A stretch of DNA of 64,000 bases from Rhynchopus sp. YZ270_cl-10. Lineage: Eukaryota. Made by a program: the position numbers and the translations under genes. The notes under the pieces were generated by a model, which worked only from the letters and a program-made list of their open reading frames with translations, was not told the DNA's origin and ran no database searches. This document shows, one piece after another, positions 1 to 55,575 of the stretch. The number at the start of each line of letters is the position of its first letter. Position 1 is the first letter of the stretch. The stretch is from NCBI GenBank assembly GCA_964035575.1, contig OZ037836.1, positions 310,001 to 374,000 of the forward strand, in the 5' to 3' direction.

Positions 1-3000
1 CACCGTCTCACCCGGTACGTCCAACCCCGAGAAGATCTCAAAGTCCAGCATGAGCTCGAGCTGCGTGATGGGGGGCGTTGTGCCATCAGGCCAACGCAAT
101 GCAGCGAGCCATGCCTTCAGCGCCCAGAAGTGGTCTTCCGTCCAGCGTGGACTCTTCTTCATGTACTTGCTCCCCCACAGTACGTTCTCCAGCGGGTTGT
201 AGCTCTCAAGCACTGCACCCTCCTGAGGATTCCAGCCCCAAGGAAAAAGGGATTGGCCCACCACCGCCTGCTTCTTCTTCTTCTGCGAAAACCCATGTTC
301 CACGTCGTACTTCTGCCTTGCCAGCGCGATGCTGACCAGCATCAGTTGCACACGACGCACCGTCTGCTCTCTCTCCGCAACACTCAGCTCCTGCAAGAAT
401 ATCGTCGGCACCAGGCCAAAGTCCAAGAAGCACGGGGGTGCGTCTTTGAGCAAAACCCGGAGTTTTCCGATGTCCTCTCCACGAATTTCGTCCCACTGCG
501 GGCACCACCACCAAGCGTGTCTCCGGTCCTCTATCGCCTCACCACAGTATCGGCACAACGAAGTCTCCACCTCCTTGTTCCTCAGCAGCTGCACCCCCAC
601 CAACTGAGAGCCCGACAAGGCTCCGCGTATCGCGCCCGCCAGGTATCTGTCGGTCGTGCGGTCCTTCCACACTGCGTTCGTCGCCTGGCGATCCACACCT
701 CCCTCAATGCCCTGCATCGACGGCCTCGTCGTCACTGTCAGGCGGTACGCGTGTGCACGGATGCCCTCTCTCAGCTCATGCAGCCATTTGCCCTTGTCCC
801 ACAGACGAACGTGCACCCTCAACCCGATGTGTGTGGTCCAGAAGTCGAAGCTGCTCCACCGCCATCCGTATCGCTCCAGGTCGTCCCACAACAACTCTAT
901 CACACCCTTCTTGTGCACTTCAGTTACCCTTGGGTTGGCAACCCCAGGGTTCTCGCGCCGGAGACGTGCCAGATCTGAAGCCCTGTCACGCCGCCTCACC
1001 TCCCGCTCCGCTCTTCGGTCATGTGCCAGCCTCCACACTTCTTCTGCTTCTCTCCGCATGCCGTCATCTTCTGTCAGTCGGAGAAAGGCCGCCATCCTCC
1101 TCTGCACAATCTCCGCTGGCGCATCAATCCCAACCGGAGATAACACATGCCACACAATGTTCAGCGTGCGCTGCTTCCTGCCCTGCCCCCAGACTGCCAG
1201 TGCTGCCCCTTGCCTCAGCGTCTCTATCGTCTGCTTCGAGAAGTCTGTCACTTCGCACCCATGCAACGCTGCCATCATTGGTCCCCTTGCGCCAATAAGT
1301 GCCTTCTCAGTGAAGGATAATGGCACACTCGAAACCCTCGTAAACACACGGTGCGCAGTAACCGCACGCTCACGCGCGATGGGCCCGAAGTTCCCCTTTC
1401 CAGCCAAAATGTCTGCTCCAACCGCCCCGAACTGCTTCTTGTCGGGGAAGAGCCCGTCGCCAAGTCCAAACTTCGTCTTTGTTCCCTCCTTCGAGGTAAA
1501 CCCTACGCACTTCTCTGCCTTGACCTCCATGTCCGCAGCAGTGATAAACTCCTTCGTCACCCTCGCAGCACCATGCACCTCCGCTTCCGTGTTCGCCACA
1601 GCATACACGTCGTCAGCGTACCCCATGGCGATTGCTCCGGTCCTTCTCGTCACTGCAGATCCCCACACCGCCATCAGCGCGTTCAACAGCACGACAGAAA
1701 GTGGGCATCCTTGCAGGATACCATTTGTCGTACGAAAGGTGCCTCCCACACCTACGTCTCCCAACTTGAAGCGGCGTTCCATGGCAGTGTACGCAGCCCT
1801 CAGTGGTCCAAGAATACGCCAGTGCGCGCCCCACTCCTCCGCCAGCGATAGCACAATCTCATGAGGTACACGATCGAAACATTTGGCGTAGTCGATCGTG
1901 AAGCCCCATACCTGGTCTGTGTCGTCACCCGACAGTACCGCCTTCTCCAGCTTGAGCGACAGATGCCAGTACAGGTGTGCAGTGCTGTGTCCTGCTCTGA
2001 AGCCGTGCTGTTGCTCACCAATCCAGCTTTCCTGCCACTTTATCAGCCTTCGCAACCTCGCTGCCGCCCACAGTCTGTAGATACACGAAGTGATCGTGAT
2101 AGGTCGCTGCTTCAGCGGGGTGTCGTCTTCCCCTTTGGGGATGAGCGCAATGAGTGCTCTCATCAAAGAAGGCGGCCACTCCCCCGTACACTCAATCGCA
2201 TCAAACACATCTGCCAGCCTGTCGAGCAGCACCAGAGGAAGCGCCTTCAGCTCTGCCATGCGCCAACCCTCCACCCCAGCAGAAGTTTGTGTCTTCATCC
2301 TCCCCAGAGTTTGCTGCAACTCCTTCCCCGTCAGCCTGTCCATCTGCATCGCTTGCCCCTTGCCTGCGATGTCTTCTGTAAACTTCTCCCTAAACGCACC
2401 CCAGTCGGGCTCTGGCTTTTCCGCATATCGGCGAAGAATCGGCATCCACGCCTCATGCAGGAGGGTGTCCATCTCCTCAGCGTTGGCGGTGAACTTCCCA
2501 TCCTCGTTCTTCAGGGCAGTCATCTTCCTGTACTGTTCGTCCTTGCAGTATTTGAAGATCGCCTTGGGAGCGTTGTGCCATGCATCCCGTAGGCGCTGCC
2601 GCCAGTCCTCCAGTCGCTTCCGCTTCACTCGGTCCGCAAGCGTTGACACCTTCACTCGCACGGCTCTGCACAGATCCACCAAAGCCTCCTCGCTAGGCAT
2701 ATCCTGTTGCAGTGAGTCGTCGTCCAGCAGAACACGCAGTTCCTTCCGCGCCTTGCTCCAACAATTGCACACGTCATGTGGCGGCACACCACCGTTGCTC
2801 CTCACGTACCACAGCCGACATTCTTCCAGCCTGCCCACGTTCTTCGTCAGCCTTCTCTGGCTCACTGTCAGAGCGTCCCCTTCCTTGCTCTGCTTCGCAG
2901 TCCGGTGCTTCGGCTTCGGGTCAAACGTTTTGCCTCTTCCGCAATACGCCTTCGTCGGGCCCTCAATCTCGCCTTCGCACGCCTGCAGCAAGAAGTCCTC

Positions 3001-3915
3001 TGCCCACTTGTTCCACTGTATCCACCTATCCTGAGGGTGTTGAAGCGCCCCCCACTGCAGCTCCTTGCTCGCAAACGCCTTTTGTGCATTCTTCACGCCT
3101 TGTCCACACTTGTCCAAAGGGAACTGCTTCGGCAGAGTGTACGCGAGCACGATCTGCCTGTACGCACCTACATCCAGCGCTATCTCTACCGGTCTGTGCT
3201 GCGGGAGCCCAGAGTCGTGGACAACCTTCACAGACGACAGCCCTGTGCACGCAGCTCGGTTCAGCAGAACGTAATCGAGCCTCTTGCGGATCTCCTTGCC
3301 GTCTTTCACCGAGAAGTAGGTGTTGTCCGGGGTCGTCCCAAGCACCCTTGCGTGCTCTTCGGCAGTGTCCTTCCACCATCCTGTGTCCAGTGTAGCAGCC
3401 AGCACACCTGATTTCCCTGGACCTGCGTTGAAATCCCCACCAATCACCCCAGGAATATCACCAAGCTCTGCAGCAGCCTCCATCACCTCGCCAAGTATTT
3501 TCTCCCTAGCCTCCGGGTCCGCCGACGGCGCGTAGACGGAGGTCACGTCGATCCACTCGTTGCCTTTGCCGTACGCCACCTTCGCCTTCACCCATCGCGT
3601 TGAGTCCCAGAGGTTCTTTTCCAAGGTTGAGGAGGGCGGGCTCGTGAGCACAGGTATTCCCTCTTGCACCAGAATCGCAACACCACCAGATTTCGCTTCT
3701 TCGGCCGACCTCCATTCCGGCAACTCCTTACCCCACACCACCTGCCAACCCTGCTCGCGGTACTCGATGGAGAGGCGCTTCTGCGTCGTCACGGTGCACT
3801 TTGTCTCTTGTACCAGAACAACTTGAGCATCCTCCGCAACCTTCAGCAGAGAACTCCCGCCTGTCTGCAGCGCCGTCACATTGCTGCACACTATCTTTAG
3901 TGGGGCAAGGCCCAC
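1..3915 (-). CDS. A1 ORF2: APE endonuclease + reverse transcriptase (runs off window)
   Basis: Constant 14637-bp offset to A2 ORF2, so no net indel. YADD is encoded near 1610 and the GTG start matches A2/A3. Confidence 0.9.
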   Translation of the reverse strand, partial: MGLAPLKIVCSNVTALQTGGSSLLKVAEDAQVVLVQETKCTVTTQKRLSIEYREQGWQVVWGKELPEWRSAEEAKSGGVAILVQEGIPVLTSPPSSTLEKNLWDSTRWVKAKVAYGKGNEWIDVTSVYAPSADPEAREKILGEVMEAAAELGDIPGVIGGDFNAGPGKSGVLAATLDTGWWKDTAEEHARVLGTTPDNTYFSVKDGKEIRKRLDYVLLNRAACTGLSSVKVVHDSGLPQHRPVEIALDVGAYRQIVLAYTLPKQFPLDKCGQGVKNAQKAFASKELQWGALQHPQDRWIQWNKWAEDFLLQACEGEIEGPTKAYCGRGKTFDPKPKHRTAKQSKEGDALTVSQRRLTKNVGRLEECRLWYVRSNGGVPPHDVCNCWSKARKELRVLLDDDSLQQDMPSEEALVDLCRAVRVKVSTLADRVKRKRLEDWRQRLRDAWHNAPKAIFKYCKDEQYRKMTALKNEDGKFTANAEEMDTLLHEAWMPILRRYAEKPEPDWGAFREKFTEDIAGKGQAMQMDRLTGKELQQTLGRMKTQTSAGVEGWRMAELKALPLVLLDRLADVFDAIECTGEWPPSLMRALIALIPKGEDDTPLKQRPITITSCIYRLWAAARLRRLIKWQESWIGEQQHGFRAGHSTAHLYWHLSLKLEKAVLSGDDTDQVWGFTIDYAKCFDRVPHEIVLSLAEEWGAHWRILGPLRAAYTAMERRFKLGDVGVGGTFRTTNGILQGCPLSVVLLNALMAVWGSAVTRRTGAIAMGYADDVYAVANTEAEVHGAARVTKEFITAADMEVKAEKCVGFTSKEGTKTKFGLGDGLFPDKKQFGAVGADILAGKGNFGPIARERAVTAHRVFTRVSSVPLSFTEKALIGARGPMMAALHGCEVTDFSKQTIETLRQGAALAVWGQGRKQRTLNIVWHVLSPVGIDAPAEIVQRRMAAFLRLTEDDGMRREAEEVWRLAHDRRAEREVRRRDRASDLARLRRENPGVANPRVTEVHKKGVIELLWDDLERYGWRWSSFDFWTTHIGLRVHVRLWDKGKWLHELREGIRAHAYRLTVTTRPSMQGIEGGVDRQATNAVWKDRTTDRYLAGAIRGALSGSQLVGVQLLRNKEVETSLCRYCGEAIEDRRHAWWWCPQWDEIRGEDIGKLRVLLKDAPPCFLDFGLVPTIFLQELSVAEREQTVRRVQLMLVSIALARQKYDVEHGFSQKKKKQAVVGQSLFPWGWNPQEGAVLESYNPLENVLWGSKYMKKSPRWTEDHFWALKAWLAALRWPDGTTPPITQLELMLDFEIFSGLDVPGETV

Positions 3916-3923
3916 GGTCGTGA

Positions 3924-6791
3924 TTAATACGACCTTTCTCGGTTATTGTCCGTGTCGCGGGGGCGGCTGTTCTCGTCCGTCGTCGTATCTTTCTTCTTCT
4001 CCTCACCGCCACGATCTTGAGCATCCCTGGCCTTGTCCTTGGCCTCGCGAGCTGCCTTCTTCAGCGCCTCGTTCTCCTCCGTGAGCCGCTTGCTCTCCGC
4101 TGCCAGCTGCACGTTCTGGTCCTTGCACTGCTGCACCGTCTCCTTCATCTCAGCACATTCTGCTCTGAGCTGTTCCATGTCGAGAGGCTGCGGCGGTTGC
4201 GCGACTGGTGCCGACTGCTGCGGCTGTCCCATCATCCGCTTCTGTGCCTCCAACATCTCCTTCTGCTGCTCCATGACGCCCTTCATCATCTCCCGCAATT
4301 CCTTCATCTCCTTCTTCATCATCTCTATCTCGTCCTGCGCTGCTGATGAAGCTGCGGGAGGTGCCGGAGCCGCCGGTGCCCCTGTTGCAGGGTGGGGTCG
4401 AGCTGCAGGTGGTGCGTATCCCCTCGCCTTAGCCGCCCACGTGCCAGCGCCGCTCTCTGCTGCTCCTTGCCTCGGTACTGGGAACTGCGCCAGAGGGAAA
4501 CCCCACGGATTCGCACCCACCTTCTGCACACGACGCCCTTCCTTCACCGCACACACCGTCAACACCAATCCACCCACCTCCAGCACCCCTTCTGTGCTCG
4601 GGCACGGCACATCCGACGTAACCGTCCACTTGTGCCCTCGCGACAGCACCTTCACCGTCCAGCTCGCCTCCCTCGCCAGCCCCTCACACAACAGCTGGAC
4701 CGACGTGTTCGCCGGAATTCCCCCAATCTCGTACCTGTGTCCCTGCACGACGACGTCCTCCTGCACAAGAAGCCTCTTCGCAGCCTCCAAGTCCCCCTTC
4801 ATCACCCGCACCGCGTAGCCCCCTTCCCCTACGGCGAGTCCGCGCACGCTATCCTCCATGTTCTCCTCAACAAGGTCCAGCCGTGCCAGAGCAGACTCCA
4901 GCGGTTCCGCCTTCCACAACAACCCACAGTCCCCGTACTCCTTTGCCTGGAAGAGGTGCCGCACAAACACCCCTTCCCGTCCGCTTCTCCTCAGCATGGC
5001 GCACACCACCATGTCCTCCGTCACGTCCACAGACATCTCCATCCATCCTCCTCTCTCCAAGCCGCGTCCACACCGCACCCCCTGCAACCCGTACCACCGA
5101 CGCATGCGTTGCTCTCCCTTTGTGCGTCCCTCCCCCTGGAGCAACATCGTTCTGCCCATCAGCGTAATCAGCTTGCTCGAGAACGTGCTCTCCACCGGCT
5201 TCACCACGTCGTCCAAGTTAGTTGTCATGGACGACAGCCACACTTCTTCCACCTTTGCTCCCCGCTCCGTCTTCACCGCCACCTTCGCCTTCTTCGTGCG
5301 CGCTGCACCCGTACACTTCGAACGGGACACAATCACCATCTGCGGAAGTTGGTGCAGCAACTGTAACCCCTGCAGAAGTTCGCTCGCCTTCCACGCAACT
5401 GCCGCCACCTGCGTCACCCCTTCCACATTGCTGGGCACTGCATCCCACACCGGTATTTTCCATCCCTGGGGCGCCAGGTTCAGTGCATCCTCCGCTGCGC
5501 TCTGGGTCACCGCCGTCGCCTTCTTCTTCCCCTTCACAGCTGTAGCCGGTACGTGCAGTTGCGGTTGTCCCACTGCGCACAGAAGTTCCTCCCCCACCTT
5601 CAACCCTGCCGATTCCACAGCACCGTAGTGTACCCCCTCGAACCCCAGGACTACGTCAGACTCCGTGAAGGTGAGGTTAGCCTTCTCCGGAGTTCCTTCT
5701 GCCAGCTGCCCGTCGGACTGCCCGTCGATCAGCGTAGCCCGTAGCGCGTTCTCCGGTCCAACGTCAAGCACAACAATGCGGACCTTCATCACCTTGGCGA
5801 TCGCATGGAGACACAAATGGTCCCCCCATGTCCCCAGCTGCGCCATGCCTGCCAGGTATGCATCAATGCACCCCTCGTCCACAAATGGGCTGTAGTGTGC
5901 CTTCTGCTCCTTCATCACCTCAACTGCGAGCCTGCGGAAGCCTGCGTGACCATTCGGGGACCGCTCCACAGACCACGCCACCGACCGGAACAGACAGTCC
6001 CCCTTGCCCCCACATTCCTCCCATCGCAACCCCCATCTTTCCAGGTGTCCCTTGACACCTGGCTGCACGGCAGCTGCCAGCGTCTCCGTCCTGCATCCCC
6101 TTGCGGCGTACCCCCCTCCTGCAACCAGCTGGGCGTTGCTCTCTGCCTCCTTCATCCCCTTCCCCGCCTTCGCGCAGTGCTGCAGCGATACCCTTATCCC
6201 CCTCTTCTTCAACTCGCCCAGCAGCGCCTTCACCTTCTCCAGCCTCGGCTTCAGCAACGACGAGTCGCAGGCGTGCCCCTCAGCCACCTGCCTCCAGACC
6301 ACCAAGTGCGTGACCCACACGCGCGCGTGGGTGCCCTTCGGGTACGACCCGTCGGCCACCCCTTGAAGCCCGAGCAGGATGCCCTCGTACGCGGCTTCTG
6401 CCTTGGTGATGTTTGCCAGGCGGCGGGTTACTTCCCAGTGCGTTCCTGGTTCCTCCTCCGTCGCATCACGCGCCAGCGCACACAGCCCCGTCGTGTCCCG
6501 CACCTTCTCGCCCGTCACTACTCCGATGAAGACATCGGGATCCTTCCTCTCCTCCCCTGCACTGCGCTTCATGCCGCCTGCCCCCGGGTAGGCGGGCTGC
6601 CGTAGCCCCTCAGTCCAGTGCGCCTGCTCCGCCGCCGCCGTCACCTCGTCACTGCAATAGCAGTTCCACGACCTGCAGCACACAGGCGCCGGCGGGTGTG
6701 GCGTCCACTTGGCCGATCCGTGTGACGGATCGTTGCCCGGGATACTCCGCGTGGAGGCTGGACGTGACTTCGACACCATGTACGAAAACAT
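3924..6791 (-). CDS. A1 ORF1: degenerate RNase H-like + OTU protease + RRM-like + coiled coil
   Basis: 955-aa ORF with OTU motifs KGDCLFRS, WGDH and GVHYGAV and a C-terminal heptad-rich segment. The true start may be the later MKRSAG. Confidence 0.88.
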   Translation of the reverse strand: MFSYMVSKSRPASTRSIPGNDPSHGSAKWTPHPPAPVCCRSWNCYCSDEVTAAAEQAHWTEGLRQPAYPGAGGMKRSAGEERKDPDVFIGVVTGEKVRDTTGLCALARDATEEEPGTHWEVTRRLANITKAEAAYEGILLGLQGVADGSYPKGTHARVWVTHLVVWRQVAEGHACDSSLLKPRLEKVKALLGELKKRGIRVSLQHCAKAGKGMKEAESNAQLVAGGGYAARGCRTETLAAAVQPGVKGHLERWGLRWEECGGKGDCLFRSVAWSVERSPNGHAGFRRLAVEVMKEQKAHYSPFVDEGCIDAYLAGMAQLGTWGDHLCLHAIAKVMKVRIVVLDVGPENALRATLIDGQSDGQLAEGTPEKANLTFTESDVVLGFEGVHYGAVESAGLKVGEELLCAVGQPQLHVPATAVKGKKKATAVTQSAAEDALNLAPQGWKIPVWDAVPSNVEGVTQVAAVAWKASELLQGLQLLHQLPQMVIVSRSKCTGAARTKKAKVAVKTERGAKVEEVWLSSMTTNLDDVVKPVESTFSSKLITLMGRTMLLQGEGRTKGEQRMRRWYGLQGVRCGRGLERGGWMEMSVDVTEDMVVCAMLRRSGREGVFVRHLFQAKEYGDCGLLWKAEPLESALARLDLVEENMEDSVRGLAVGEGGYAVRVMKGDLEAAKRLLVQEDVVVQGHRYEIGGIPANTSVQLLCEGLAREASWTVKVLSRGHKWTVTSDVPCPSTEGVLEVGGLVLTVCAVKEGRRVQKVGANPWGFPLAQFPVPRQGAAESGAGTWAAKARGYAPPAARPHPATGAPAAPAPPAASSAAQDEIEMMKKEMKELREMMKGVMEQQKEMLEAQKRMMGQPQQSAPVAQPPQPLDMEQLRAECAEMKETVQQCKDQNVQLAAESKRLTEENEALKKAAREAKDKARDAQDRGGEEKKKDTTTDENSRPRDTDNNRERSY

Positions 6792-6831
6792 TGTTTATAT
6801 TCTTTCTTTTTGTGTACGTTGTGTGTATCCC
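6702..6831 (-). ncRNA. HDV-like self-cleaving ribozyme candidate at A1 5' end
   Basis: P1 GGGATAC/GTATCCC, P2 CGTCCA/TGGACG, L3 TCCACGC, GG-GCAA, P4 CGATCCG/CGGATCG, J4/2 GCCAAG. Confidence 0.8.
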
Positions 6832-7435
6832 CCAGGTTGGCTAAAGAGTTGCAGCCGTAAAGAAAGCACCTCTCAATCATCGTAACATTCTCGAATGGTG
6901 TCAGATCCAGGGTGGTTAAAGAGTTGCAGTCGCAAAGAAAGTGACTGCCAATCTCCGTCACATTGCTCAACCCAGAGAGGTCAATACTTGTCAACGAGGT
7001 GCACTCCTCGAGGAAGTTGTCTCCAATGTGAGTCACAATGGACTCAGCACTGAGATCAAGTCTCGTCAACGAAGTGCCTGTCAAGAACCCATCAGGAATG
7101 ACAGTCGCAACCTCCGCCTGCAGAAGCAAACACGCCACCTCAGGATCCTCCACCTCCTCCAACCGCTCTGGAGTCAGGTCTCTCTCACCCAACGCATGAA
7201 GTGCTGCTATGGCTTCGTACCTCTGTGTTTTTGTGAGGATGATTGTGTCACCAGCACTCAGCTGCGTCATGTCCGCTCCTTCTCCCATCGCTTCGTCTCC
7301 GAAACTCATGCAAAAGCTGTTTTCAGGCAACCCCATTGCAGTCGCCACCTTCCGCCGCAAGCCCTCCACTGTGTCATCTGCACCCACCTCGACTGTGTGC
7401 TGGTTCGCTCTGAAATCCTCGAAGTGCACGTCCAT
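6832..7435 (-). pseudogene. UBL-LRR gene, 5' half, interrupted by A1
   Basis: MDVHFEDF...VEVGADDTVEGLRRKVA...LSAGDTIILT followed by LRRs ending at GCNSLANL at the element junction. Confidence 0.9.
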
Positions 7436-13708: not shown

Positions 13709-13785
13709 TAAACTTGTTGACGTGACCCATCCCCACCTTCTCAGATGAACTGAGAGGTGAGAAAGGCGCCACGTGACCACCTTCG

Positions 13786-31734: not shown

Positions 31735-31766
<32 letters not shown>

Positions 31767-41693: not shown

Positions 41694-41733
41694 TGTTTAT
41701 ATTCTTTCTTTTTGTGTACGTTGTGTGTATCCC
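41604..41733 (-). ncRNA. HDV-like ribozyme candidate at A3 5' end
   Basis: Same sequence and fold as the A1 candidate. Confidence 0.8.
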
Positions 41734-46498: not shown

Positions 46499-46565
46499 GG
46501 GGGCCCGTTTTCGATGCATGCACCCCTATCCGAGATAGGTGATACAATACATCGTGGGGGTGATA

Positions 46566-49500
46566 TTACATAAGTCCATCACCGCCCCTGCTGTGCCCAT
46601 CCTTCTGCTTCGTCTGCTTCTTCTTGAAGAAGCCTCCCAGCGTCGTCTGTCGCCCCTTCGAGGTGTCGTGGTGGCGGCGGCAGCAGTGATCCAGCGTACT
46701 CTTCTCTTGCACACAGTTCCCGCACCTCGAGAGTCTATGCTTAGTGCATGCTTCGTGTCGGATCGGTAACCCGTCGTCGTTGGAGTGGTGCGCAAAGCAG
46801 CAATGCATCAGGTCTGCCTGGGCGTTCTTCGAGCAGGCATCACACTTCGTCTTCCGGTGCAGCACACATATCGCAAACTGGAAGATCGGAACCGCTCCTT
46901 CAGGTGCCTTCACGGGTGCGTCCCCTGGACGCACGTGCTCATGGTGCCGGTAGCGAGCATGCGCAGATGTCTCCTGTTCAGCCCGCTGGATGAATGGTAG
47001 TGCCCTCCTGCCCCTAACTTCTGTGGAGGGGTACGCCGTCTCAGCAGAATACTCCCCCATCCATGTACCTCTCGCTCTATCGCCACCACGGAGCTCCGCC
47101 TCAGACATGCCTTCGGAGCTGCGTTGCAGACGGTACGCCACACCAGCATCGTATAGCGCACGCAATGCCTTCAACGTTTCTTCTCCGCCGGCAAAGATAG
47201 GACGGCGGTCGATGCCTGTGATGGCGTTCGCCCCAAACGAAGCGAGAACATGCGTTACCTTCACCTTCCCCGGATGGAGAGAGCTCTCCGAAAAGGTTCT
47301 GAGTGAAGCCAACATATGCCCAAAGGTGGTCGTCTTCGCCATTTCTCTGTGGGCCAGCGCTACTGGCACCACGTCGTCATCATCGTCGTCTTCCCCACTC
47401 CCGTCGTCTTCCCCCCCATTGTTGACTTCTTCCCCAGTCCCATCCCTCGGCTGCTTCAGCTTCGGCGCTATTCTGCCGGTCTTGTCCCCAGGTCGGATGT
47501 CCATCCCTGTGGCAACCTCGAAGTCGATGAGCAGCTCCATGTGGGAGACTTCACGTCCAGCTTCGTCGCTCCATTGTAAACCACCCAGCCAGGAGGCAAA
47601 CGCCAGCAGCAGCGCACGTCCATACGGCCACCTCCTTTTCAGGGGGGTGTAGTCCACCAAACTGTTCGCGTGTTGCGTCGTCGTGTCCAACTCCGGCGCC
47701 CACGTCCACGGGTATCGGTCTTCTTGCAGTCGCGGGTTCGTCGCTTCCGGTCTGCTCCACTTGGAGCGTGCGATGAGGATGCGCACCATCATCTTCTGCA
47801 GGTCTGCAACACGGGCGCATTCCAAAGGTGTGTCCGGTGTGCACATGCCGCAGATAGCGAGACAGTTTGGCCAGGTCGTTCTGTCAATGTCCAACAGCAA
47901 GGGGTACTCCGCACGAATGCTACTCCATGCTTCACATTCCCACCACAAGTGTTTGTGATTTTCGTCCACCCCCGCTTCGCAGTGAACGCAGATGGCCGAG
48001 TCCCGTATGCGCGCTCTCGCAAGTCGCACCCCCGTTATCGCACCGTCAGCTACAATGTGTCGCAGCGTCCCCGCCTCGTAATCCGTCAAACTTTTGCTTC
48101 GGGTGAGAGCAAGGGTTTTCTCCTTATCCACCCCCGCTTCAATACCCTTCAGGTTAGCTCTGCCTTTGCCATTGACCTTCGCAGTCGTCTTCGTACGGGA
48201 GAGTCGAATGAAGAACATCCGTTCTCGCACAACGTGGCCCAGTCTACCCAAGCTTACTGTCTTCACATCAACGATGCTCCCATCGTGCGTTTTCACTTTT
48301 GTCGTGTCTATCCATGACCACGCAAGGCGGCTGAGGGCTCGCGCAATCAACCCGATGGGTCCTCCAGTCTTCGCCTGCTTCGCTTTCGCACGTGACCTGC
48401 ACTTTTCGACCAGCAAACAGATCTCATCCGATTTGCGTATCATCGCCGCCCACGTCATGATCCTTCTGTAGTCGAATGCCACCGAGGGGTCGAGCAGATG
48501 GCCTTTCTCGAAGACATTCAGCATGACCGGTACGCTTCTTCGGTTCATCTTGTTCACGCCGTGGACCCCTTTCTCCACTGCAGTTGCAAGACTGTTCACG
48601 TATTTCCCAGGTGGGTCCTGCACCGTGATACCGTACACAGATTTCGACATCACTGCAGCCTGCATGATGCCTGCTTTCTCACCTTGAGTCAGCGGGAGGC
48701 ATCCCACCTTACCTGCTAGCGGTCCGCATGCGTCGATGGTGTCTTCCAGCTTCGTCGGGAGCGTAGCCTGTCGGGCCTGCACCGTCGCCCCCAGGCACTC
48801 CGACTTCTCGACGCGAGTAAGATCCGCGCCGTTCATCTGCACAGTTTCCTCTTCATCAGGACGGTTGCTCTGCCACGTGCTTTTCCCCGCGTGGACGCGT
48901 TGTCCCGTCAAGTCTGCAAAGTGTCCGGTGAAGGCGACACCCGCTCGCAGCTGGTCGAGGGTCTTCGTCAGGAGGTTGGTGTCGTCAGCATACGCCAGCC
49001 CCTGCGTGCCCGTTTCCTTCTCCACCCCGTTCATCCACACCGCCACCAGCGCATTCAGGAAGATTACGCTCAGTGGGCATCCTTGGAGGATACCATTCGT
49101 CGCAAACCATTCTTTGCCAAGACCTGCCGGAAGTTTGAAACGCCTCCCCAGCTTCTTGTATATACCCCGGATGGGGCGCATCATGTTGTCGGGAAGACCC
49201 AACCGTTCGACGAGCTGGAACATGATCTCTTGGGGAACACGGTCAAAGCACTTCTGATAGTCGAAGGAGGCTAGATAGATAGGTGTGTCGTCTATCAGAG
49301 CCTCCTCCATCTTCGCACAGAGAAACCACAGCAGGTCTTCGGTTCCGTGTTTGTTCCGGAAGCCGTGTTGCCGCTCGTGAATCCAGGATTCCTGCCACGT
49401 CGCCACTTTGCGGAGTCGAGTCGCCGCCCATAACCTGTACATCACACTGGTGATGGTTATGGGTCGCTGCTTCAGGGGCTCCTCGCCTTCTCCTTTGGGG

Positions 49501-51551
49501 ATGAGCACCACCAACGCCCTCGCAATCACCCTGGGCCAGTTCCCAGTATCCTCGATCAGGTTCAGGCAGCGCGCGAGTTCCTCCAGCAGTGCCAAAGGCA
49601 GTTCCTTCAGCTCCTCCACCCTCCACCCATCGAGGCCTGCCGCCTTTTTCCGCTTCATCTTGCCGATGGTCGTACGGAGGTCGTCGGCGGTCAGGGGTTC
49701 GCATACACAAGGGGTCCCTTCAGGAATGTGTTCCTTGAACCTATCAAAGAACGTCGTCCACGCAGGTTCTTCGGAATCGTCGTACATCCGGAACACCCCA
49801 CCCCAAGCACGGTCATCCATGAGCAGTTCATCCATCTCCTGGAGGTTAGCTGTAACCGTGCCGTCCTCCCGTTTCAGGAACGTGGTGTGTGACGACGTAG
49901 CCTTCCGCAGGAACGAGAACACCTTCGCTGGGTTCACCTTCATGTGTTCCTTCATTGTGCGGCGCCATTCCTTGATGCGGGCCCGACGCCGTTGCTCCAG
50001 CAGGACAAAACCCCTCTTCTTCAAGCAGCCAAGGAGCCCACACAACGCCTCTATCCCAGGAAGGTCGAGGTCCCAGGTGTCACTCTTCAGTAGATGCTTC
50101 TTCTTGCGGATTTTCGCCCACAGCTGCCGTTCGTTCAACGATTCTGCAGATGGCTGACCGAAGCGCTTCCTCCGATCACCAATGAGCTGCTCCATCTGAC
50201 GACATGTCTTCTGCAGTTGAGCCGTCTCCAGGTTCACAGCATCCGGCGTGTCGCAGTCCATGCGGGCCGTCCGATGTCGGAGAACGTCGGGTTGCACCTC
50301 CCCTCTCCCCCTGTGGCGTTGTTGCTTCGGGTCTGAGTCTGCAGCACCTCTCTTCAGCAGGTAGTCCTCCGCAATCTTGCAGAAGCGTGCCCAGCGATCT
50401 TCAACCGACATCTTCGTCAGGTCGGCTTCAGGGGCAGCGTTCTCCTGCATCACCTTCGCTGCAAGCTCCTTCTCCTTCTTCGCCGGCCATTTCGTCCAGT
50501 CGTCGCCGATCAAAGAAAGGGGAGGGCGTGCCTGCGGTGCCTTCTGCTCGTATCGCGTCAGGTCTAACGTCAACACCACCGGTCTGTGTACCGGGAGGCA
50601 GCTCTCTTTCCAGACCACCACTTTGGAGATCGCAGGGGCAGCCACGTGGTTCGCCAGCACCAAGTCGATACGTCTGCCAGACGATGTGGAGGTATAGCAT
50701 GTGTTCTCTGCTGCCTTACCCAACTGCTGTGCGTAGGTATCTGCCGCATCAACCCATTTGCCGGAGGAGATGGCCGCTCGAATGGCTAGACTTTCGTTAG
50801 CCTCTACGTTGAAGTCTCCGGCAATGAACACCGGTATGTCCCCAAGGCTGGCTGCTTCTTCAAAGATGCCTGTCAGGAGTTGCTCCGTGCGGTCGCTGTC
50901 AGCACACACACCATAAAACGAGAACACAGAGATGTTACGTCCCCCGCTCCCATATGCCACCTGCGCATGCGTAAAGCGGCATTCGTTCCACGCTTGTTGG
51001 GCACATTGTGGCGGTACTGCTCTGGTCGGTATGTCAGCGCACGTCATGATCGCAACTCCACCATTCTGCGTGCGCGTGCGCAGAGGGTCTGATCCCTGGC
51101 TTCGTCTGCAAGGGGCACCAAAGAGAAGCTGCTTGGCACCATACCCCTTCACGTCGTTTGCTGCCCCCTTCATCTCTTCTTCTGTGAGGCGCACCTCCTG
51201 CAGAGCACAAACGTCCACATCCCACTCCCCCACCGCAGGGTGTGCCCTCAGAGACGTCACGTTTGCCGTGCCAAGCGACATGGTCGACGGACCCGGATGC
51301 TCCTCCACGTCTCCACATGTCAGCAGTGACCCCCTGCCCAAAAACGCCCCTCGTCGCCTCCCTCGACGCACCCTGTGTCCGACCCCTCGCCCCACCCCCC
51401 TTCGCGTTCTACCCTTACCCCTTGTCCCCGACAGCATACAGCCCGCAGAGCGCAAACGATGCTGACCCCTTGTTGGGGAGACAGTTTTCACAAAAACGTC
51501 TCGTTCTCCAACTACGCACGAAGAAGCCAATCCTGTGCCGTACCCTTCCAC
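46566..51551 (-). CDS. B ORF2: 2A-like peptide + APE + RT + Zn modules
   Basis: GRGSLLTCGDVEEHPGP, then ALQEV, AGDFN, RIDLV, FDYQKCFDRV, QGCPLS, YADD and CVHC..H..C. Confidence 0.95.
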   Translation of the reverse strand: MEGYGTGLASSCVVGERDVFVKTVSPTRGQHRLRSAGCMLSGTRGKGRTRRGVGRGVGHRVRRGRRRGAFLGRGSLLTCGDVEEHPGPSTMSLGTANVTSLRAHPAVGEWDVDVCALQEVRLTEEEMKGAANDVKGYGAKQLLFGAPCRRSQGSDPLRTRTQNGGVAIMTCADIPTRAVPPQCAQQAWNECRFTHAQVAYGSGGRNISVFSFYGVCADSDRTEQLLTGIFEEAASLGDIPVFIAGDFNVEANESLAIRAAISSGKWVDAADTYAQQLGKAAENTCYTSTSSGRRIDLVLANHVAAPAISKVVVWKESCLPVHRPVVLTLDLTRYEQKAPQARPPLSLIGDDWTKWPAKKEKELAAKVMQENAAPEADLTKMSVEDRWARFCKIAEDYLLKRGAADSDPKQQRHRGRGEVQPDVLRHRTARMDCDTPDAVNLETAQLQKTCRQMEQLIGDRRKRFGQPSAESLNERQLWAKIRKKKHLLKSDTWDLDLPGIEALCGLLGCLKKRGFVLLEQRRRARIKEWRRTMKEHMKVNPAKVFSFLRKATSSHTTFLKREDGTVTANLQEMDELLMDDRAWGGVFRMYDDSEEPAWTTFFDRFKEHIPEGTPCVCEPLTADDLRTTIGKMKRKKAAGLDGWRVEELKELPLALLEELARCLNLIEDTGNWPRVIARALVVLIPKGEGEEPLKQRPITITSVMYRLWAATRLRKVATWQESWIHERQHGFRNKHGTEDLLWFLCAKMEEALIDDTPIYLASFDYQKCFDRVPQEIMFQLVERLGLPDNMMRPIRGIYKKLGRRFKLPAGLGKEWFATNGILQGCPLSVIFLNALVAVWMNGVEKETGTQGLAYADDTNLLTKTLDQLRAGVAFTGHFADLTGQRVHAGKSTWQSNRPDEEETVQMNGADLTRVEKSECLGATVQARQATLPTKLEDTIDACGPLAGKVGCLPLTQGEKAGIMQAAVMSKSVYGITVQDPPGKYVNSLATAVEKGVHGVNKMNRRSVPVMLNVFEKGHLLDPSVAFDYRRIMTWAAMIRKSDEICLLVEKCRSRAKAKQAKTGGPIGLIARALSRLAWSWIDTTKVKTHDGSIVDVKTVSLGRLGHVVRERMFFIRLSRTKTTAKVNGKGRANLKGIEAGVDKEKTLALTRSKSLTDYEAGTLRHIVADGAITGVRLARARIRDSAICVHCEAGVDENHKHLWWECEAWSSIRAEYPLLLDIDRTTWPNCLAICGMCTPDTPLECARVADLQKMMVRILIARSKWSRPEATNPRLQEDRYPWTWAPELDTTTQHANSLVDYTPLKRRWPYGRALLLAFASWLGGLQWSDEAGREVSHMELLIDFEVATGMDIRPGDKTGRIAPKLKQPRDGTGEEVNNGGEDDGSGEDDDDDDVVPVALAHREMAKTTTFGHMLASLRTFSESSLHPGKVKVTHVLASFGANAITGIDRRPIFAGGEETLKALRALYDAGVAYRLQRSSEGMSEAELRGGDRARGTWMGEYSAETAYPSTEVRGRRALPFIQRAEQETSAHARYRHHEHVRPGDAPVKAPEGAVPIFQFAICVLHRKTKCDACSKNAQADLMHCCFAHHSNDDGLPIRHEACTKHRLSRCGNCVQEKSTLDHCCRRHHDTSKGRQTTLGGFFKKKQTKQKDGHSRGGDGLM

Positions 51552-51563
51552 CGCACCACACCG

Positions 51564-54500
51564 TCACCGCCCCACATCGCGCAGGGTGTTGCGGCCTACC
51601 AACCTGTTGTCTAGTCCCTGGACGGGACGAAACGCGATCTCGATGACGTCCCCCGCTACCTTCACGACAGTCACCGGGATGGCTGCGCCGTTGCCTCCCT
51701 CCTCGCGGTACTCCATGGAGTCGCCAGCCTCCAGCACTGCGTTCCCGTACGACTCCTCGTTCTTCTCGTTCCCCTCCGCCTGCTCTTTTGCGGGGACTTC
51801 CGTCCGCATCCTGCGCGGCGGACTCAGCAGCGCCACCGTCTCACCGGACTCACTGCGGTCTTCCCGCTTGCCCGCCAGGGTCACGGCAGGTGGCGCCACC
51901 GGCACTCTGGGAGCTGGCGAGGTCTCCGCGTCCTCCTCGACAGCCGCACAGTCTGGCGATGTCTGCACCGGCAGTGCCATGTCGGCGTCGTCCATCCGTG
52001 CCTCGGCGTCTGGTGTCGTGGGTGCGGGGGTCCCTGCGCCGGCGTTCTCCCCTTGCTCCTGCTCACGTTGTGCCTGCACTGCTGCAGCACGTCTCTCCTT
52101 CTTTGCCGCCGCTTCTTCCTGTGCTGCCCGTAGTGCCTCCCGTCGTTTCTCAGCGGCCACAATGTTCCTGCGTTTCTTCTTCTTCTTCGGGGACGCCACC
52201 ACTACCTCCACATCACCGGCGCCAGCAACGTCCGCAGTCGGCGATGTGTCCCTGGGCGGTGCTGACCGCGACCGGTTCCGTGCTTCGGCGACTTCTACGA
52301 CTACCCCCGGCTTTCCACGGATGGTGTCAGCCCTCCTCCTCCTGCGGCGCGGGCTCAGCTCCTCAACCTCACTGGACCCATTTCCCGCACGTATCCGCTT
52401 ACCTGCCATCGTTGCGGGCTCCGGTGACATCACGTCCTCGGCATTCCCGTCTGGGAGTGTGTCCAACAATTCATCCGCCATCTGCATCTCGGGTGTTGTG
52501 GGCGCTGCAGTGGGCACTGCGACAGTCGGGGCCGTAGTAGCAGCAGCCTCCCCCTCGCGCTGCCTGGCGTTCTCAGCAGCAACTGCAGCAGCGGCGGCGG
52601 CGGCTTCCTCCTCCTGCTGCCAGAGGATTGCAGCAGCAGCGTCGGCTTCCTCACGCTGCTTGAGGACTGCAGCAGCGGCGGCCTTCTCCTCCTCCTCACG
52701 CTGCCTCAGGGCTGCAGCAGCAGCGGCCTTCACCTCCTCCTCGCGCTGCTTGAGGGCTGCAGCAGCGGCGACCTCCTCCTCCTGCCTCAGGGCTGCAGCA
52801 GCAGCGGCCTTCACCTCCTCCTCGCGCTGCTTGAGGGCTGCAGCAGCGGCGGCCTTCACCTCCTCCTCACGCTGCCTCAGGGCTGCAGCAGCAGCGGCCT
52901 TCACCTCCTCCTCGCGCTGCTTGAGGGCTGCAGCAGCGGCGGCCTTCGCCTCCTCCTCACGCTGCCTCAGGGCTGCAGCAGCGGCGGCCTTCACCTCTTC
53001 CTCACGCTGCCTCAGGGCTGCAGCAGCAGCGGCCTTCACCTCCTCCTCACGCTGCCTCAGGGCTGCAGCGGCGGCGGCCTTCGCCTCCTCCTCCTCCTGC
53101 CTCAGGGCTGCAGCAGCAGCAGCGGCGTCCTCTCTCGCAGCAGCCGTGGCCTCCTTCGGCATGGAACAGAGCTTGCCCACTTGCTCCAGCATGGCCGCCA
53201 TCCACACCTGCTGCTCCTTCCGTTGCTCCACCCGTTCTTCCCGCAACTGGGCCGTCAGCGACGCCACCGTCTCCTGCAGCAGGGTCTGGAGGCGCTCGCC
53301 CACCAGGCGGTCCAACCTCTCCTCCATCCGGCGCTCCAACTCCGCCCACTTCTCGCCTGCGTCCTCAGGTGATGGGGCGGGCGACGTCATTGGGGGTTGA
53401 CCCTTCGGCGTCCGTTGCTTCGTTGTTGTTGTTGTTGTTGGTGGAGGTGTCCTTGATGTGGTAGTGGGTGGCTTCGCTGCAGCTGGCGCTGTTGCTGCTT
53501 GGCGTGCGTGCGCAGCCCAGGACACCCAACCGTAGTCGGGCCCAGTGCCACGGTTGTGCTGCGCTGTCGCCGCCGGCGCCGTCCGGGCACCAAATGTCGG
53601 ACCAGACGCATGTGCGGTATGTACCTTGGCCTTCTGTTTCGCCCCCGGACCCGGAGCCGTTGCCCTACCCCCGCCCTCCTTATGCCCATCCTTGCGGATC
53701 AGCAGCCCCTTCCCGTTCCCCTCCATGTCCATGGCCCACGTCGGCGGATCCAGCTTCGCTCCCACCACCCAACGCCATCCCTCCAGCCTCCGCAGCGGCG
53801 TCACCGTCCACCCTGCGCCTGCCAGCGACTCCATCACCGCTTCACCGGACGTACCCGACGGGAAACCGGACACCACGTATCGACCTTCGGGCGCCTTTCC
53901 CTCCTGCATGAGTGCCGCATTTGCACGCTCCTGATCCTCCTTCTTCACCCGTATCCCCAGGGACTCGTACCTCGCCGCCACTCCCCATCCCCCCATCCGG
54001 GTCGCCAGCCCCTGGGCCTCTTCTAGCCCCACCCCGTCCACCAACCACACGACAGGCAGATGCTCCGACTGCTCGCGTCTCATCCGGAAGAAGACACCCC
54101 CCTTCCCACTCTGCTTCAGGCAGCGCTCTGATACGTCCTCCCTTACGTCGGCCACCGAGGAGATCAGCTTACCCTCCTGCCACAATGGTGGGCGGTTGAG
54201 GTTGCACCCCACCTCCGCACGCATCTTCTTCCCCGCTGACACCAGGTCCTGCGCTTGTCCTGCTGTCGGCCTCATCGTCACAAACACCGTCACCAGTTGG
54301 ACGGCCGCCGACGCCTTCTTCCCCCCGTTTCCTCTCCCCGGCCTCAGCCTCCCCACCACGTACACGGCCGTGCTCGCCGCCCCGTTCACCTTCCCCCCAT
54401 TCCCCTGCTTACCCATGGGGCACTGCATCTTCTCCCCACCAGACTTCGGGAAGGACCCGAAACCCACCCACGTCACGCCCGGCGTGCGCGCGATCTTCCC

Positions 54501-55238
54501 CTCTGCCTCTACCTCTCTACCCTGCGGCACAAGACAGACCCCCTCCGACTTATCCACCACCTCCCCCCACGGCACAAGCGTCGATCCCACCCACTCCGAT
54601 TGCAGCAATGTCAGCGCTGCCGTCGTCTTCTTTTTCCCTCCCCCCTGGGTGAAGCCCCCCTCCGTCCCCGCCTTCGCATCGTTTCGCGGTTGCGGCACGG
54701 TGTACGGCTTCTCCGTCACCTCCAACGCACCCCCCACCATCGCCTTGCGGGCCCGGTCTTCGGCGGCTTCTTCCCCCGTGCTCGTGGGGAGGACGCACAG
54801 GTAGTGGCATGCGTCCACGTACGCCACCGTCACCGCTGCACCGCTGCCCTTCTCCTTCGGGTGCACCTTCAGCACACGCACCTCCCCATCCTTCACCGAG
54901 AAGGCATACACCTCCCGCATCAGCACCTCCGCCAACGCCTTCAGGGTCAGGTGGTCCCCCCAGGACCCCTGCTTCGCCATCGCCGAGCAGTACCTCCGGT
55001 AGGCGGACGGTCCTCCGTCAACGTGCTCACCCCAATTCTCCGCTTCCCGTTCCAACACCCCCACCGCCATCTCCCTCAGCCCCCCGTGCGCCGTGGCGTC
55101 TCCGTGCACAGCCATCGAGACCGCCTTAAATTGGCAGTCTCCGTTCCCCCCTGCGTCCTTTACCCGCATGTCGAAGCCCCTTAGGTATTTCTGCAGCACC
55201 CCCTTTTCCCCCCCTTGGCCACCTGCCCCTCCGCACAT
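51564..55238 (-). CDS. B ORF1: OTU protease + RRM-like + Ala/Glu-rich helical repeat
   Basis: The first ATG after the ribozyme is at 55238. OTU motifs GNGDCQFKAV, WGDH and CHY. The central region resembles A ORF1. Confidence 0.85.
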   Translation of the reverse strand: MCGGAGGQGGEKGVLQKYLRGFDMRVKDAGGNGDCQFKAVSMAVHGDATAHGGLREMAVGVLEREAENWGEHVDGGPSAYRRYCSAMAKQGSWGDHLTLKALAEVLMREVYAFSVKDGEVRVLKVHPKEKGSGAAVTVAYVDACHYLCVLPTSTGEEAAEDRARKAMVGGALEVTEKPYTVPQPRNDAKAGTEGGFTQGGGKKKTTAALTLLQSEWVGSTLVPWGEVVDKSEGVCLVPQGREVEAEGKIARTPGVTWVGFGSFPKSGGEKMQCPMGKQGNGGKVNGAASTAVYVVGRLRPGRGNGGKKASAAVQLVTVFVTMRPTAGQAQDLVSAGKKMRAEVGCNLNRPPLWQEGKLISSVADVREDVSERCLKQSGKGGVFFRMRREQSEHLPVVWLVDGVGLEEAQGLATRMGGWGVAARYESLGIRVKKEDQERANAALMQEGKAPEGRYVVSGFPSGTSGEAVMESLAGAGWTVTPLRRLEGWRWVVGAKLDPPTWAMDMEGNGKGLLIRKDGHKEGGGRATAPGPGAKQKAKVHTAHASGPTFGARTAPAATAQHNRGTGPDYGWVSWAAHARQAATAPAAAKPPTTTSRTPPPTTTTTTKQRTPKGQPPMTSPAPSPEDAGEKWAELERRMEERLDRLVGERLQTLLQETVASLTAQLREERVEQRKEQQVWMAAMLEQVGKLCSMPKEATAAAREDAAAAAAALRQEEEEAKAAAAAALRQREEEVKAAAAAALRQREEEVKAAAAAALRQREEEAKAAAAAALKQREEEVKAAAAAALRQREEEVKAAAAAALKQREEEVKAAAAAALRQEEEVAAAAALKQREEEVKAAAAAALRQREEEEKAAAAAVLKQREEADAAAAILWQQEEEAAAAAAAVAAENARQREGEAAATTAPTVAVPTAAPTTPEMQMADELLDTLPDGNAEDVMSPEPATMAGKRIRAGNGSSEVEELSPRRRRRRADTIRGKPGVVVEVAEARNRSRSAPPRDTSPTADVAGAGDVEVVVASPKKKKKRRNIVAAEKRREALRAAQEEAAAKKERRAAAVQAQREQEQGENAGAGTPAPTTPDAEARMDDADMALPVQTSPDCAAVEEDAETSPAPRVPVAPPAVTLAGKREDRSESGETVALLSPPRRMRTEVPAKEQAEGNEKNEESYGNAVLEAGDSMEYREEGGNGAAIPVTVVKVAGDVIEIAFRPVQGLDNRLVGRNTLRDVGR
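52560..53140 (-). repeat. 45-bp coding tandem repeat (REEEVKAAAAAALRQ) in B ORF1
   Basis: About 10-11 degenerate units visible in DNA and protein. Confidence 0.92.
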
Positions 55239-55275
55239 CGCGTCGAGGCTGCCCCCCGCCGCCGTCCTTCTTCCC

Positions 55276-55359
55276 CGCGCTTTAGCAGACGCCTCCCCCC
55301 ATAGAGGAGGGGGGCGTCTCCCGAGGGTACCCCGTGGAGGCGCGTCGTCTCTCACCCTC
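55276..55359 (-). ncRNA. HDV-like ribozyme candidate at B 5' end
   Basis: P1 GAGGGTG/TACCCTC, CC-TCCACGG-GG, GG, P4 AGACGCC../..GGCGTCT, J4/2 GCTAAA, P2 CGCG/CGCG. Confidence 0.68.
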
Positions 55360-55575
55360 TTTCTGCGTTTTTGTGAGGTTGATTGTGTCACCAGCACTCA
55401 GCTGCGTCATGTCCGCTCCTTCTCCCATCGCTTCGTCTCCGAAACTCATGCAAAAGCTGTCTTCAGGCAACCCCATTGCAGACGCCACCTTCCGCCGCAG
55501 GTCCTCCACTGTGTCATCTGCACCCACCTCGACTGTGTGCTGATTCGCTTTGAAATCCTCGAAGTGCACGTCCAT
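55360..55575 (-). pseudogene. 5' (UBL) piece of doubly interrupted UBL-LRR gene
   Basis: MDVHFEDFKANQ...LSAGDTINLTKTQK, then element B. Confidence 0.9.

What the first reader, a model, noticed from the sequence alone, without database searches (positions are those of the whole stretch)
1..55575. Retrotransposon guild specialised on a UBL-LRR gene array
Seen: all six retro-insertions (A1-A4, the SINE-like element and B) fall inside coding sequence of one gene family, in sense orientation, and none fall in spacers or HSP70. The full-length copies start with an HDV-like fold and encode an OTU domain. Known: R2 and L1Tc/ingi elements carry 5' HDV-like ribozymes, and site-specific LINEs usually target multicopy RNA genes or repeats. 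Inference: these elements use a redundant multicopy protein-coding family as their safe harbour and borrow its transcription. They may also drive the family's truncation and turnover.
Basis: partly seen in the sequence, partly recalled or inferred. Interest (0 to 1): 0.92.

Follow-up and report, generated by a model that had tools for sequence, protein, structure and literature searches.

The report
Jumping genes target one protein family
In a likely diplonemid (marine protist) genome, several retrotransposon families sit at the same few positions inside the coding sequence of a large ubiquitin-like/leucine-rich-repeat gene family, likely because their cutting enzymes favour DNA motifs repeated in those genes, an unusual case of protein-coding genes serving as a landing site.

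Summary
Six retro-insertions (A1-A4, SINE S, B) interrupt five of 13 UBL-LRR genes, all in sense. The five with both ends in view have distinct 17-20 bp target-site duplications. Predicted proteins from other contigs repeat these sites (6 of 6 A/S tails; three more B-type junctions; an unknown insert at B's site in 11 of 33 clusters), scattered over the family tree. All five intact 5' ends, S included, fit an HDV-like fold at base 1. ORF1 carries OTU under purifying selection. 'Safe harbour' exclusivity is unproven: there is no genome-wide denominator, and one exact A 3' end lies in a non-LRR flank. Sense orientation follows from an asymmetric motif and polycistronic gene order, so 'borrowing this family's transcription' is untested. 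The closest precedent is trypanosome RHS genes, a hot spot for ingi/RIME. New here: several families dividing up codon-phased sites in one gene family. New variant of a known kind; interest 0.64.

The parts
1..6831 (-). LINE A1 (3' end beyond window); ORF1 3924-6791 with OTU, ORF2 APE-RT from 3942
6703..6831 (-). HDV-like fold of A1; the ORF1 ATG lies in J1/2, so the ribozyme core is also coding
6832..7435 (-). UBL-LRR gene, 5' half, interrupted by A1 in the LRR Asp codon
9384..9759 (-). UBL-LRR gene 3' half after S (TSD copy 9739-9758)
9760..10374 (-). SINE-like element S, 615 bp, shares its terminal 3' motif with A; HDV-like fold 10287-10374 with a hairpin in L3
10375..10480 (-). LRR fragment upstream of S (TSD copy 10375-10394); the gene's 5' part is replaced by a 7-bp array
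11123..12124 (-). intact UBL-LRR gene (CaaX-like end)
13452..13707 (-). UBL-LRR gene 3' half after A2 (TSD copy 13690-13708)
13708..21486 (-). LINE A2, full length 7779 bp; ORF1 18561-21446 (OTU), ORF2 13786-18639 (APE, RT, C-terminal Cys/His repeats); HDV-like fold 21358-21486
21487..22316 (-). UBL-LRR gene 5' half before A2 (TSD copy 21487-21505)
24212..25477 (-). intact UBL-LRR gene
27676..28185 (-). UBL-LRR 5' half fused to a copy of the HSP70 3' end (26713-27676); not a retro-insertion
28726..29715 (-). intact UBL-LRR gene
30429..32270 (-). HSP70 gene, uninterrupted, same strand as the array
33661..33975 (-). UBL-LRR gene 3' half after A3 (TSD copy 33959-33976)
33976..41733 (-). LINE A3, full length 7758 bp; ORF1 38829-41693, ORF2 34054-38847; HDV-like fold 41605-41733
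41734..42491 (-). UBL-LRR gene 5' half before A3 (TSD copy 41734-41751); its paralogue at 57346-58428 keeps the empty site
43625..43879 (-). 3' part of the doubly hit UBL-LRR gene (A4 TSD copy 43861-43877)
43880..45799 (-). LINE A4, 5'-truncated, 1920 bp
45800..46498 (-). middle part of the doubly hit gene, between A4 and B (TSD copies 45800-45816 and 46479-46498)
46499..55359 (-). LINE B, full length 8861 bp; ORF1 frame 51564-55397 with OTU at about 54804-55148; ORF2 46566-51563 in the same frame with a 2A-like peptide at 51288-51332, APE and RT; HDV-like fold 55276-55359
55360..55575 (-). UBL part of the doubly hit gene, cut by B at the linker Lys codon (TSD copy 55360-55379)
57346..58428 (-). 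intact UBL-LRR gene, close paralogue of the A3-bearing gene
59171..60301 (-). intact UBL-LRR gene, close paralogue (98-99% in the 5' and middle parts) of the B/A4-bearing gene
61742..62974 (-). intact UBL-LRR gene
63550..64000 (-). UBL-LRR gene, 3' part (runs off the window)

Best explanation
Two LINE families (A, B) and a short non-coding element (S) have inserted repeatedly at fixed positions inside UBL-LRR coding sequence, likely because each family's endonuclease prefers a DNA motif that this large gene family repeats many times, with likely strong but not exclusive specificity. A, and S as its likely passenger, use the LRR motif C-x-x-L-x-x-L-D (5' junction in the Asp codon); B and at least one unseen element use the linker Lys after the UBL domain. 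Inferred cycle: read-through transcription of the one-way gene cluster runs into the element; the HDV-like ribozyme cuts at the element's first G and frees the RNA; APE nicks the motif; RT primes there; a second nick 17-20 bp away makes the duplication. Because the motif is asymmetric and coded on one strand, insertions come out in sense. Each insertion truncates one member; the cost is likely small because close intact paralogues remain. Shown: sites, duplications, domains, folds, recurrence in divergent paralogues. Inferred: nuclease specificity, ribozyme cleavage, co-transcription, low cost.
For: Five distinct TSDs, and an empty site in an intact paralogue. 5 of 5 A/S 5' junctions lie within one base of each other in a roughly 75-bp repeat (about (2/75)^4 = 5e-7, my arithmetic). 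Out of sample, 3 of 120 top homologues end in A sequence and 3 of 33 short homologues in S sequence, 6 of 6 at the same Leu-Asp position. Of 33 short homologues, 19 leave the family 12-13 residues after the SAGD motif, B's site: 3 with B-type tails (one is the window's own), 11 with one identical five-residue tail. A search with A ORF1, not with the host family, returned as the B cluster's representative a 96.6%-identical B ORF1 joined in frame to a different UBL at the same linker. Tail-bearing UBLs are scattered on the family tree (11 rows need 8 changes; shuffled mean 7.7) and have an intact relative at 86-100%. Target motif 39 sense against 1 antisense. The first 130 nt of A2 and A3 are 128/130 identical while the next 1.6 kb are about 74% identical with dS about 0.7-1.1; OTU region dN/dS 0.17. 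Relative site specificity and an RHS hot spot are established for L1Tc and ingi (PMC5814959 section 2.1; PMC7563717 passages).
Against: No genome-wide denominator; nearly all outside evidence was gathered through the host family, and the one exception is a cluster representative, probably biased towards long in-frame fusions. In run X5 one contig matches A's 3' end exactly over 102 bases and continues into 558 bases that did not lay on the A3 flank at 90%; its 30 shown letters are not an LRR frame, read by eye. In X1 and X3, three contigs each leave near the 3' tip into long, mutually unlike flanks (agreement 0.56); at least one is only a 34-base, 2-mismatch relative; 13 of 28 loose ends were shown. 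The DNA behind the unknown tails was not seen. The UBL tree has 71 columns and 7 starred branches, which force only 2 origins for the 11-row tail. The conserved 130 nt could reflect recombination, since A2 is a mosaic. A4's 3' host part is only 89-93% like the intact paralogue against 98-99% upstream, so that gene may be recombinant.
Confidence: 0.62

Rival explanations
1. Strict, R2-like specialisation: nearly all A, B and S copies sit in UBL-LRR genes, each family at its own site, and depend on these genes for transcription.
For: 6 of 6 in the window and base-precise recurrence outside; the B representative found without the host query is at the same site; at least 7 A copies are placed in the family against 33 member sequences in A's ORF2 cluster, with only 120 of 1261 hits inspected.
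Against: An exact A 3' end in a non-LRR-phase flank in run X5, and unlike flanks in X1 and X3. TSD length and 3' junction vary by several bases.
Confidence: 0.22
2. Survivor bias: the elements insert with only a weak local motif all over the genome, and copies persist in this redundant family because they are purged elsewhere.
For: The family is very large (1261 hits, the top 120 on at least 27 contig lengths) and most outside evidence was ascertained on it. Non-family flanks exist.
Against: Survival does not explain base-precise phase within the LRR, separate sites for A/S and B, or zero insertions in the 60% of host sequence that is not UBL-LRR CDS.
Confidence: 0.12
3. A few ancestral insertions were spread by duplication, gene conversion or assembly error rather than by repeated retrotransposition.
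For: The array is visibly mosaic (A2, the A4 gene, the HSP70 fusion); starred branches force only 1-2 origins per tail.
Against: Each insertion has its own TSD that matches its own paralogue; identical B tails sit on UBLs only 58% alike; contigs of independent runs cover the element throughout.
Confidence: 0.04

Closest known systems
Trypanosome RHS (retrotransposon hot spot) genes with ingi/RIME (T. brucei) and associated L1Tc/NARTc (T. cruzi)
   Same: A LINE and its SINE insert at a fixed site in the coding region of a large euglenozoan multigene family, making pseudogenes with two separated halves (PMC7563717, passages; the 2002 original was not held).
   Different: The host here is UBL-LRR, not RHS. 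At least two, probably three, separate sites are used by different element families; one site recurs with each LRR unit. The elements have an ORF1 with OTU, 17-20 bp TSDs and no poly(A) tail.
L1Tc/ingi clade LINEs (Pr77 ribozyme and promoter, 2A peptide)
   Same: APE-RT LINE with a 5' HDV-like fold at base 1, a short non-autonomous partner, a 2A-like peptide before APE (B only), relative site specificity (PMC5814959, PMC4035085, PMC3708506; passages).
   Different: ingi-clade elements lack ORF1, carry RNase H and C2H2 fingers in the long ORF, and make about 12-bp TSDs. A and B have two ORFs, no Pfam RNase H in ORF2, and Cys/His repeats of another pattern; A's ribozyme overlaps ORF1. Clade membership was not tested by phylogeny.
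Target-specific non-LTR elements (R1 and Tx1 with APE; R2, CRE/SLACS, NeSL, Utopia with RLE)
   Same: Fixed-position insertion into a multicopy target; R2 frees its RNA with a 5' HDV-like ribozyme (PMC3774820, abstract).
   Different: The listed targets are rRNA, spliced-leader, tRNA and snRNA genes, transposons, microsatellites and telomeres (PMC4640811, passages), not protein-coding repeats; exclusivity is not shown here.
OTU-bearing transposons (Ginger1, Helitron)
   Same: An OTU deubiquitinase domain carried by a mobile element (PMC2836005, passages).
   Different: Those are DNA transposons. Here OTU is in a LINE ORF1; one search (3 papers listed) showed no LINE ORF1 case. Utopia/NeSL carry the related Ulp1 protease (PMC4640811, passages).

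Membership tests
APE-type non-LTR retrotransposon | APE endonuclease upstream of RT | tested here: met
   Pfam Exo_endo_phos and RVT_1 above cut-off in ORF2 of A2 and B
APE-type non-LTR retrotransposon | Target-site duplications and 5'-truncated copies | tested here: met
   TSDs of 17-20 bp in 5 of 5 elements with both ends in view; A4 truncated
ingi/L1Tc clade | RT phylogeny groups with ingi/L1Tc | not tested
   No reference sequences were at hand; the nearest named relatives are Diplonema papillatum proteins at 32-46%
ingi/L1Tc clade | 5' HDV-like ribozyme at base 1 | tested here: met
   Descriptor fits; similarity to Pr77 itself was not shown and Rfam gave no match
ingi/L1Tc clade | 2A-like peptide before APE | tested here: inconclusive
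   Present in B with His for Asn against the motif given in PMC3708506; absent in A
ingi/L1Tc clade | Single long ORF, no ORF1 | tested here: not met
   A and B have a 954-1277 aa ORF1 frame
ingi/L1Tc clade | RNase H after RT, poly(A) 3' end, about 12-bp TSD | tested here: not met
   No RNase H in ORF2 at E 0.05; ends are not poly(A) and TSDs are 17-20 bp
RHS-type hot spot | LINE and SINE inserted at one fixed coding position in many members of a multigene family | tested here: met
RHS-type hot spot | Host genes are RHS homologues | tested here: not met
   Hosts match ubiquitin and LRR_5/4/8, no RHS family; works like RHS, is not RHS
Strictly target-specific LINE | Same base position in independent insertions | tested here: met
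   5 of 5 in the window within one base; 6 of 6 outside
Strictly target-specific LINE | Nearly all genomic copies at the target | tested here: inconclusive
   No genome held; one exact counter-example and some unlike flanks
HDV-like ribozyme | P1, P1.1, P2, P3, P4 nested pseudoknot with a J4/2 cytosine | tested here: met
   P3 has two pairs in A and B, P2 four pairs in B, L3 is enlarged and P4 weak in S
HDV-like ribozyme | Self-cleavage 5' of G1 | not testable with these tools
   needs in vitro transcription
OTU deubiquitinase | Catalytic Cys and His in an OTU domain | tested here: met
   Pfam OTU 1.7e-12 to 8.8e-10; Cys and His aligned in A2, A3 and B; best PDB hit OTUD3
OTU deubiquitinase | Ubiquitin or UBL cleavage activity | not testable with these tools
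   needs an assay

The most novel reading that the evidence does not exclude
A community of four or more retroelement families has specialised on one huge protein-coding family and divided it into niches (LRR repeat, UBL linker, a third site after the linker helix), each with its own sequence-specific APE nuclease, each cut free from the host transcript by an HDV-like ribozyme, and each carrying an OTU deubiquitinase that may act on the ubiquitin-like-domain proteins it disrupts, so that the elements set the birth-and-death rate of a possible immune or effector repertoire.
Probability: 0.25. Interest if true: 0.85.

Novelty: new variant of a known kind. Interest (0 to 1): 0.64.

Why it matters
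Reviews list RNA genes, repeats and telomeres as the targets of site-specific LINEs; the one protein-coding precedent I found is trypanosome RHS. A second euglenozoan case, with different families using different codon-phased sites in one gene family, would show that protein-coding repeats can be a stable niche for retrotransposons. It would give matched APE nucleases with different targets for studying how specificity evolves, and a measurable driver of turnover in a very large LRR family. Young, intact, ribozyme-headed copies make each step testable in vitro.

Tried and rejected
No whole genome was held, so the decisive flank census was not possible; the cluster-member look-up could not be made. 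No RNA holder was listed among 21 runs: no evidence on expression either way. Contig depths were not used as copy numbers; run X8 laid nothing. Rfam (E up to 1) gave only miRNA/snoRNA chance hits; ARAGORN found no tRNA head for S; blastn found no internal S-A homology. The 13 metagenome loci of ORF2 relatives are mostly element fragments; my comparison with the window's ORF1 and UBL-LRR proteins fell in the cut part of the output, so they gave no usable flank evidence. The AlphaFold model of ORF1 was unusable (mean pLDDT 36); no fold search was run. A multiple alignment of the four 5' ends showed no shared primary sequence. The Atlas did not answer for the host protein. HSP70 against PDB was uninformative on taxonomy. 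Earlier scan notes: none for this genome or host protein. Considered and rejected: the HSP70-derived segment as the SINE (it is a gene fragment without a TSD); an intron reading of the unknown five-residue tail (it would not begin with GT at the linker; DNA not seen). PMC12278014 and PMC2323293 (passages) added only the TSD length.
Full report
Setting. The window is a one-strand array of 13 intronless UBL-LRR genes (N-terminal ubiquitin-like domain, BspA-type LRRs, and a CaaX-like or basic C-terminus) with one HSP70 gene. The nearest named relatives of the element's ORF2 are Diplonema papillatum proteins at 32-46%, so the host is likely another diplonemid; this is an inference. The family is large: 1261 hits among 7998 candidates scored, the best 120 on at least 27 distinct contig lengths, all from ENA apart from the window's own. 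I take these to be the same assembly because they share contig lengths with the window's proteins; that too is inferred.

Observation. Six insertions interrupt five genes, all in sense: A1 (5' end 6831), A2 (21486-13708, TSD 19), A3 (41733-33976, TSD 18), A4 (45799-43880, 5'-truncated, TSD 17), S (10374-9760, TSD 20), B (55359-46499, TSD 20). Each TSD differs, and the intact paralogue of the A3 gene shows the single-copy empty site. UBL-LRR CDS is 40% of the 30,236 host bases, so 6 of 6 has probability 0.004, or 6e-5 with orientation. Six genes are intact, one runs off the window, and one is fused to a 95%-identical copy of the HSP70 3' end without a TSD. The S-bearing gene has also lost its 5' part to an 85-copy 7-bp array.

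Elements. A and B are two-ORF APE-RT LINEs, 31% identical in ORF2, with C-terminal Cys/His repeats shared with the Diplonema relatives. ORF1 has an OTU domain with Cys and His kept and dN/dS 0.17 between A2 and A3. At least four further ORF1 relatives at 27-39% exist (P0164-P0166, P0170; unnamed source). S is 615 bp, shows no internal homology to A or B, and shares A's last nine bases and its target, so A likely moves it. An HDV-like fold begins at the first base of A1-A3, B and S; 0 of 4000 random G positions pass the relaxed descriptor. In A the ORF1 ATG lies in a 60-nt J1/2, so the core is read as protein too. These 130 nt are 128/130 identical between A2 and A3 while the next 1.6 kb are about 74% identical; this fits selection on the RNA, though A2 is a mosaic and recombination could give the same picture.

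All five A/S 5' junctions fall at base 1 or 2 of the Asp codon in C-x-x-L-x-x-L-D. That motif occurs 39 times in sense and once in antisense in the host sequence, which alone explains the orientation. B cuts after the linker Lys that follows the UBL domain.

Outside the window. Among the top 120 homologues, 3 end in A-derived sequence, all at the Leu-Asp site, and they are 3 of the 4 that lack the family's C-terminal motif. Among 33 short homologues (53-170 aa; query was the window's UBL plus B tail), 19 leave the family at B's site (3 B-type tails including the window's own, 11 with one identical five-residue tail, 5 others), 7 at a third site about 35 residues after SAGD (6 by script, 1 by eye; two tail types recur), 3 at the LRR site with S tails (2 by script, 1 by eye), and 4 elsewhere. 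The DNA of the unknown tails was not seen, so their being retroelements is inferred. On a quick tree of 138 UBL rows (71 columns, weakly resolved; rows where my pattern found no UBL start were left out, 15 of 153) the tails are no more clustered than shuffled labels, and each of the 24 tail-bearing rows has an intact relative at 86-100%. A search with A ORF1 returned P0184, a B ORF1 (96.6%) joined in frame to a different UBL at the same linker, one base shifted. It was not found through the host family, but cluster representatives probably favour long fusions.

Against exclusivity. In run X5 a 660-base contig matches A's 3' end exactly for 102 bases and continues into 558 bases that did not lay on the LRR flank at 90%; the 30 letters shown are not an LRR frame, read by eye. 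Runs X1 and X3 each show three contigs leaving near the tip into long, unlike flanks; at least one shares only 34 bases with two mismatches and is a relative rather than A. One X3 loose end reproduces the A3-type LRR junction. Only 13 of 28 loose ends were shown. With no genome the fraction of copies in the family is unknown: at least 7 A copies are placed there, against 33 sequences in A's ORF2 cluster.

Mechanism. Most likely (0.62) each family's endonuclease has a strong relative preference for a motif that the UBL-LRR family offers in large numbers. Read-through of the one-way cluster likely supplies the RNA and the ribozyme likely trims it. Diplonemid genes lie in unidirectional, probably co-transcribed clusters (PMC10161547, passages), so this supply need not be special to the family, and L1Tc shows that a ribozyme head can also be a promoter (PMC1874656, abstract and passages; PMC3383444, abstract in a listing). 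Rivals: strict specialisation (0.22), survivor bias (0.12), spread by duplication (0.04).

Known systems. RHS genes of trypanosomes are a multigene family with an ingi/RIME hot spot in the 5' coding region, predicted to disrupt more than half the members (PMC7563717, passages; the 2002 paper was not held). L1Tc/NARTc show relative site specificity (PMC5814959, section 2.1 and passages). HDV-like heads (PMC4035085, passages), 2A peptides (PMC3708506, passages; it gives ingi-clade elements no ORF1) and OTU in DNA transposons (PMC2836005, passages) are known. A review passage lists targets of site-specific LINEs without protein-coding genes (PMC4640811, passages). Searches for a LINE aimed at LRR coding sequence (0 papers; 3 unrelated), for diplonemid LRR expansions (1 unrelated) and for OTU in non-LTR elements (3, none on a LINE ORF1 by listing or passages) found no prior description in the open library. 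Subscription papers, Repbase and the Diplonema paper's supplements were not seen and may bear on this. The system works like RHS/ingi but is not a member of either family by the features tested.

Verdict. Real, beyond chance and wider than the window. A new variant of a known kind: niche-partitioned, codon-phased targeting of a protein-coding family by ribozyme-headed, OTU-bearing LINEs. Exclusivity, cleavage and co-transcription remain untested. Interest 0.64.

Noticed in passing
window 26713-28185 (-): A UBL-LRR 5' half is fused to a 95%-identical copy of the HSP70 3' end and its downstream region (29777-30734); a rearrangement without a TSD.
   Followed up: partly
window 10480-11073: An array of 85 copies of a 7-bp unit replaces the 5' part of the S-bearing gene.
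   Followed up: no
window 51288-51566 (-): B's ORF1 stop is UGA followed by CGG (a read-through context, recalled), ORF2 continues in the same frame, and a 2A-like peptide precedes APE. A second B copy (P0184) ends ORF1 at the same place.
   Followed up: partly
window 38820-38850 (-), also in A1 and A2: A's ORF2 overlaps the end of ORF1 in the -1 frame and has no ATG before APE; a GTG in a Kozak-like context lies shortly after the ORF1 stop.
   Followed up: no
window about 41020-41425 (-), A ORF1 residues 90-225: Looks like an RNase H-like (RVT_3) domain that has lost its acidic residues; Atlas score 0.89, a lead only; dN/dS 0.2.
   Followed up: partly
window 19700-21486 (-): A2 is a mosaic: ribozyme region near-identical to A3, next 1.6 kb about 74%, remainder about 99% apart from a dip near the end of ORF1.
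   Followed up: partly
P0184 (unnamed source): A B insertion in frame gives a predicted 1306-aa UBL-OTU-ORF1 fusion, which would be made only from RNA that escapes ribozyme cleavage.
   Followed up: partly
P0132, P0135, P0139, P0141, P0149, P0150: A third recurrent break point about 35 residues after SAGD, with two kinds of shared tail from unseen elements.
   Followed up: partly
window 10287-10374 (-): S's HDV-like fold has a small hairpin inside L3.
   Followed up: partly
window 30429-30460 (-): The HSP70 ends without the usual EEVD tail (motif recalled).
   Followed up: no
window 61135-61411: Short palindromic tandem repeats (21-22 bp units) in a spacer; they gave the chance miRNA hits in Rfam.
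   Followed up: no
L001 (100-1143 frame), L007 (243-3335 frame): Metagenome relatives of ORF2 also carry 2A-like peptides before APE.
   Followed up: no
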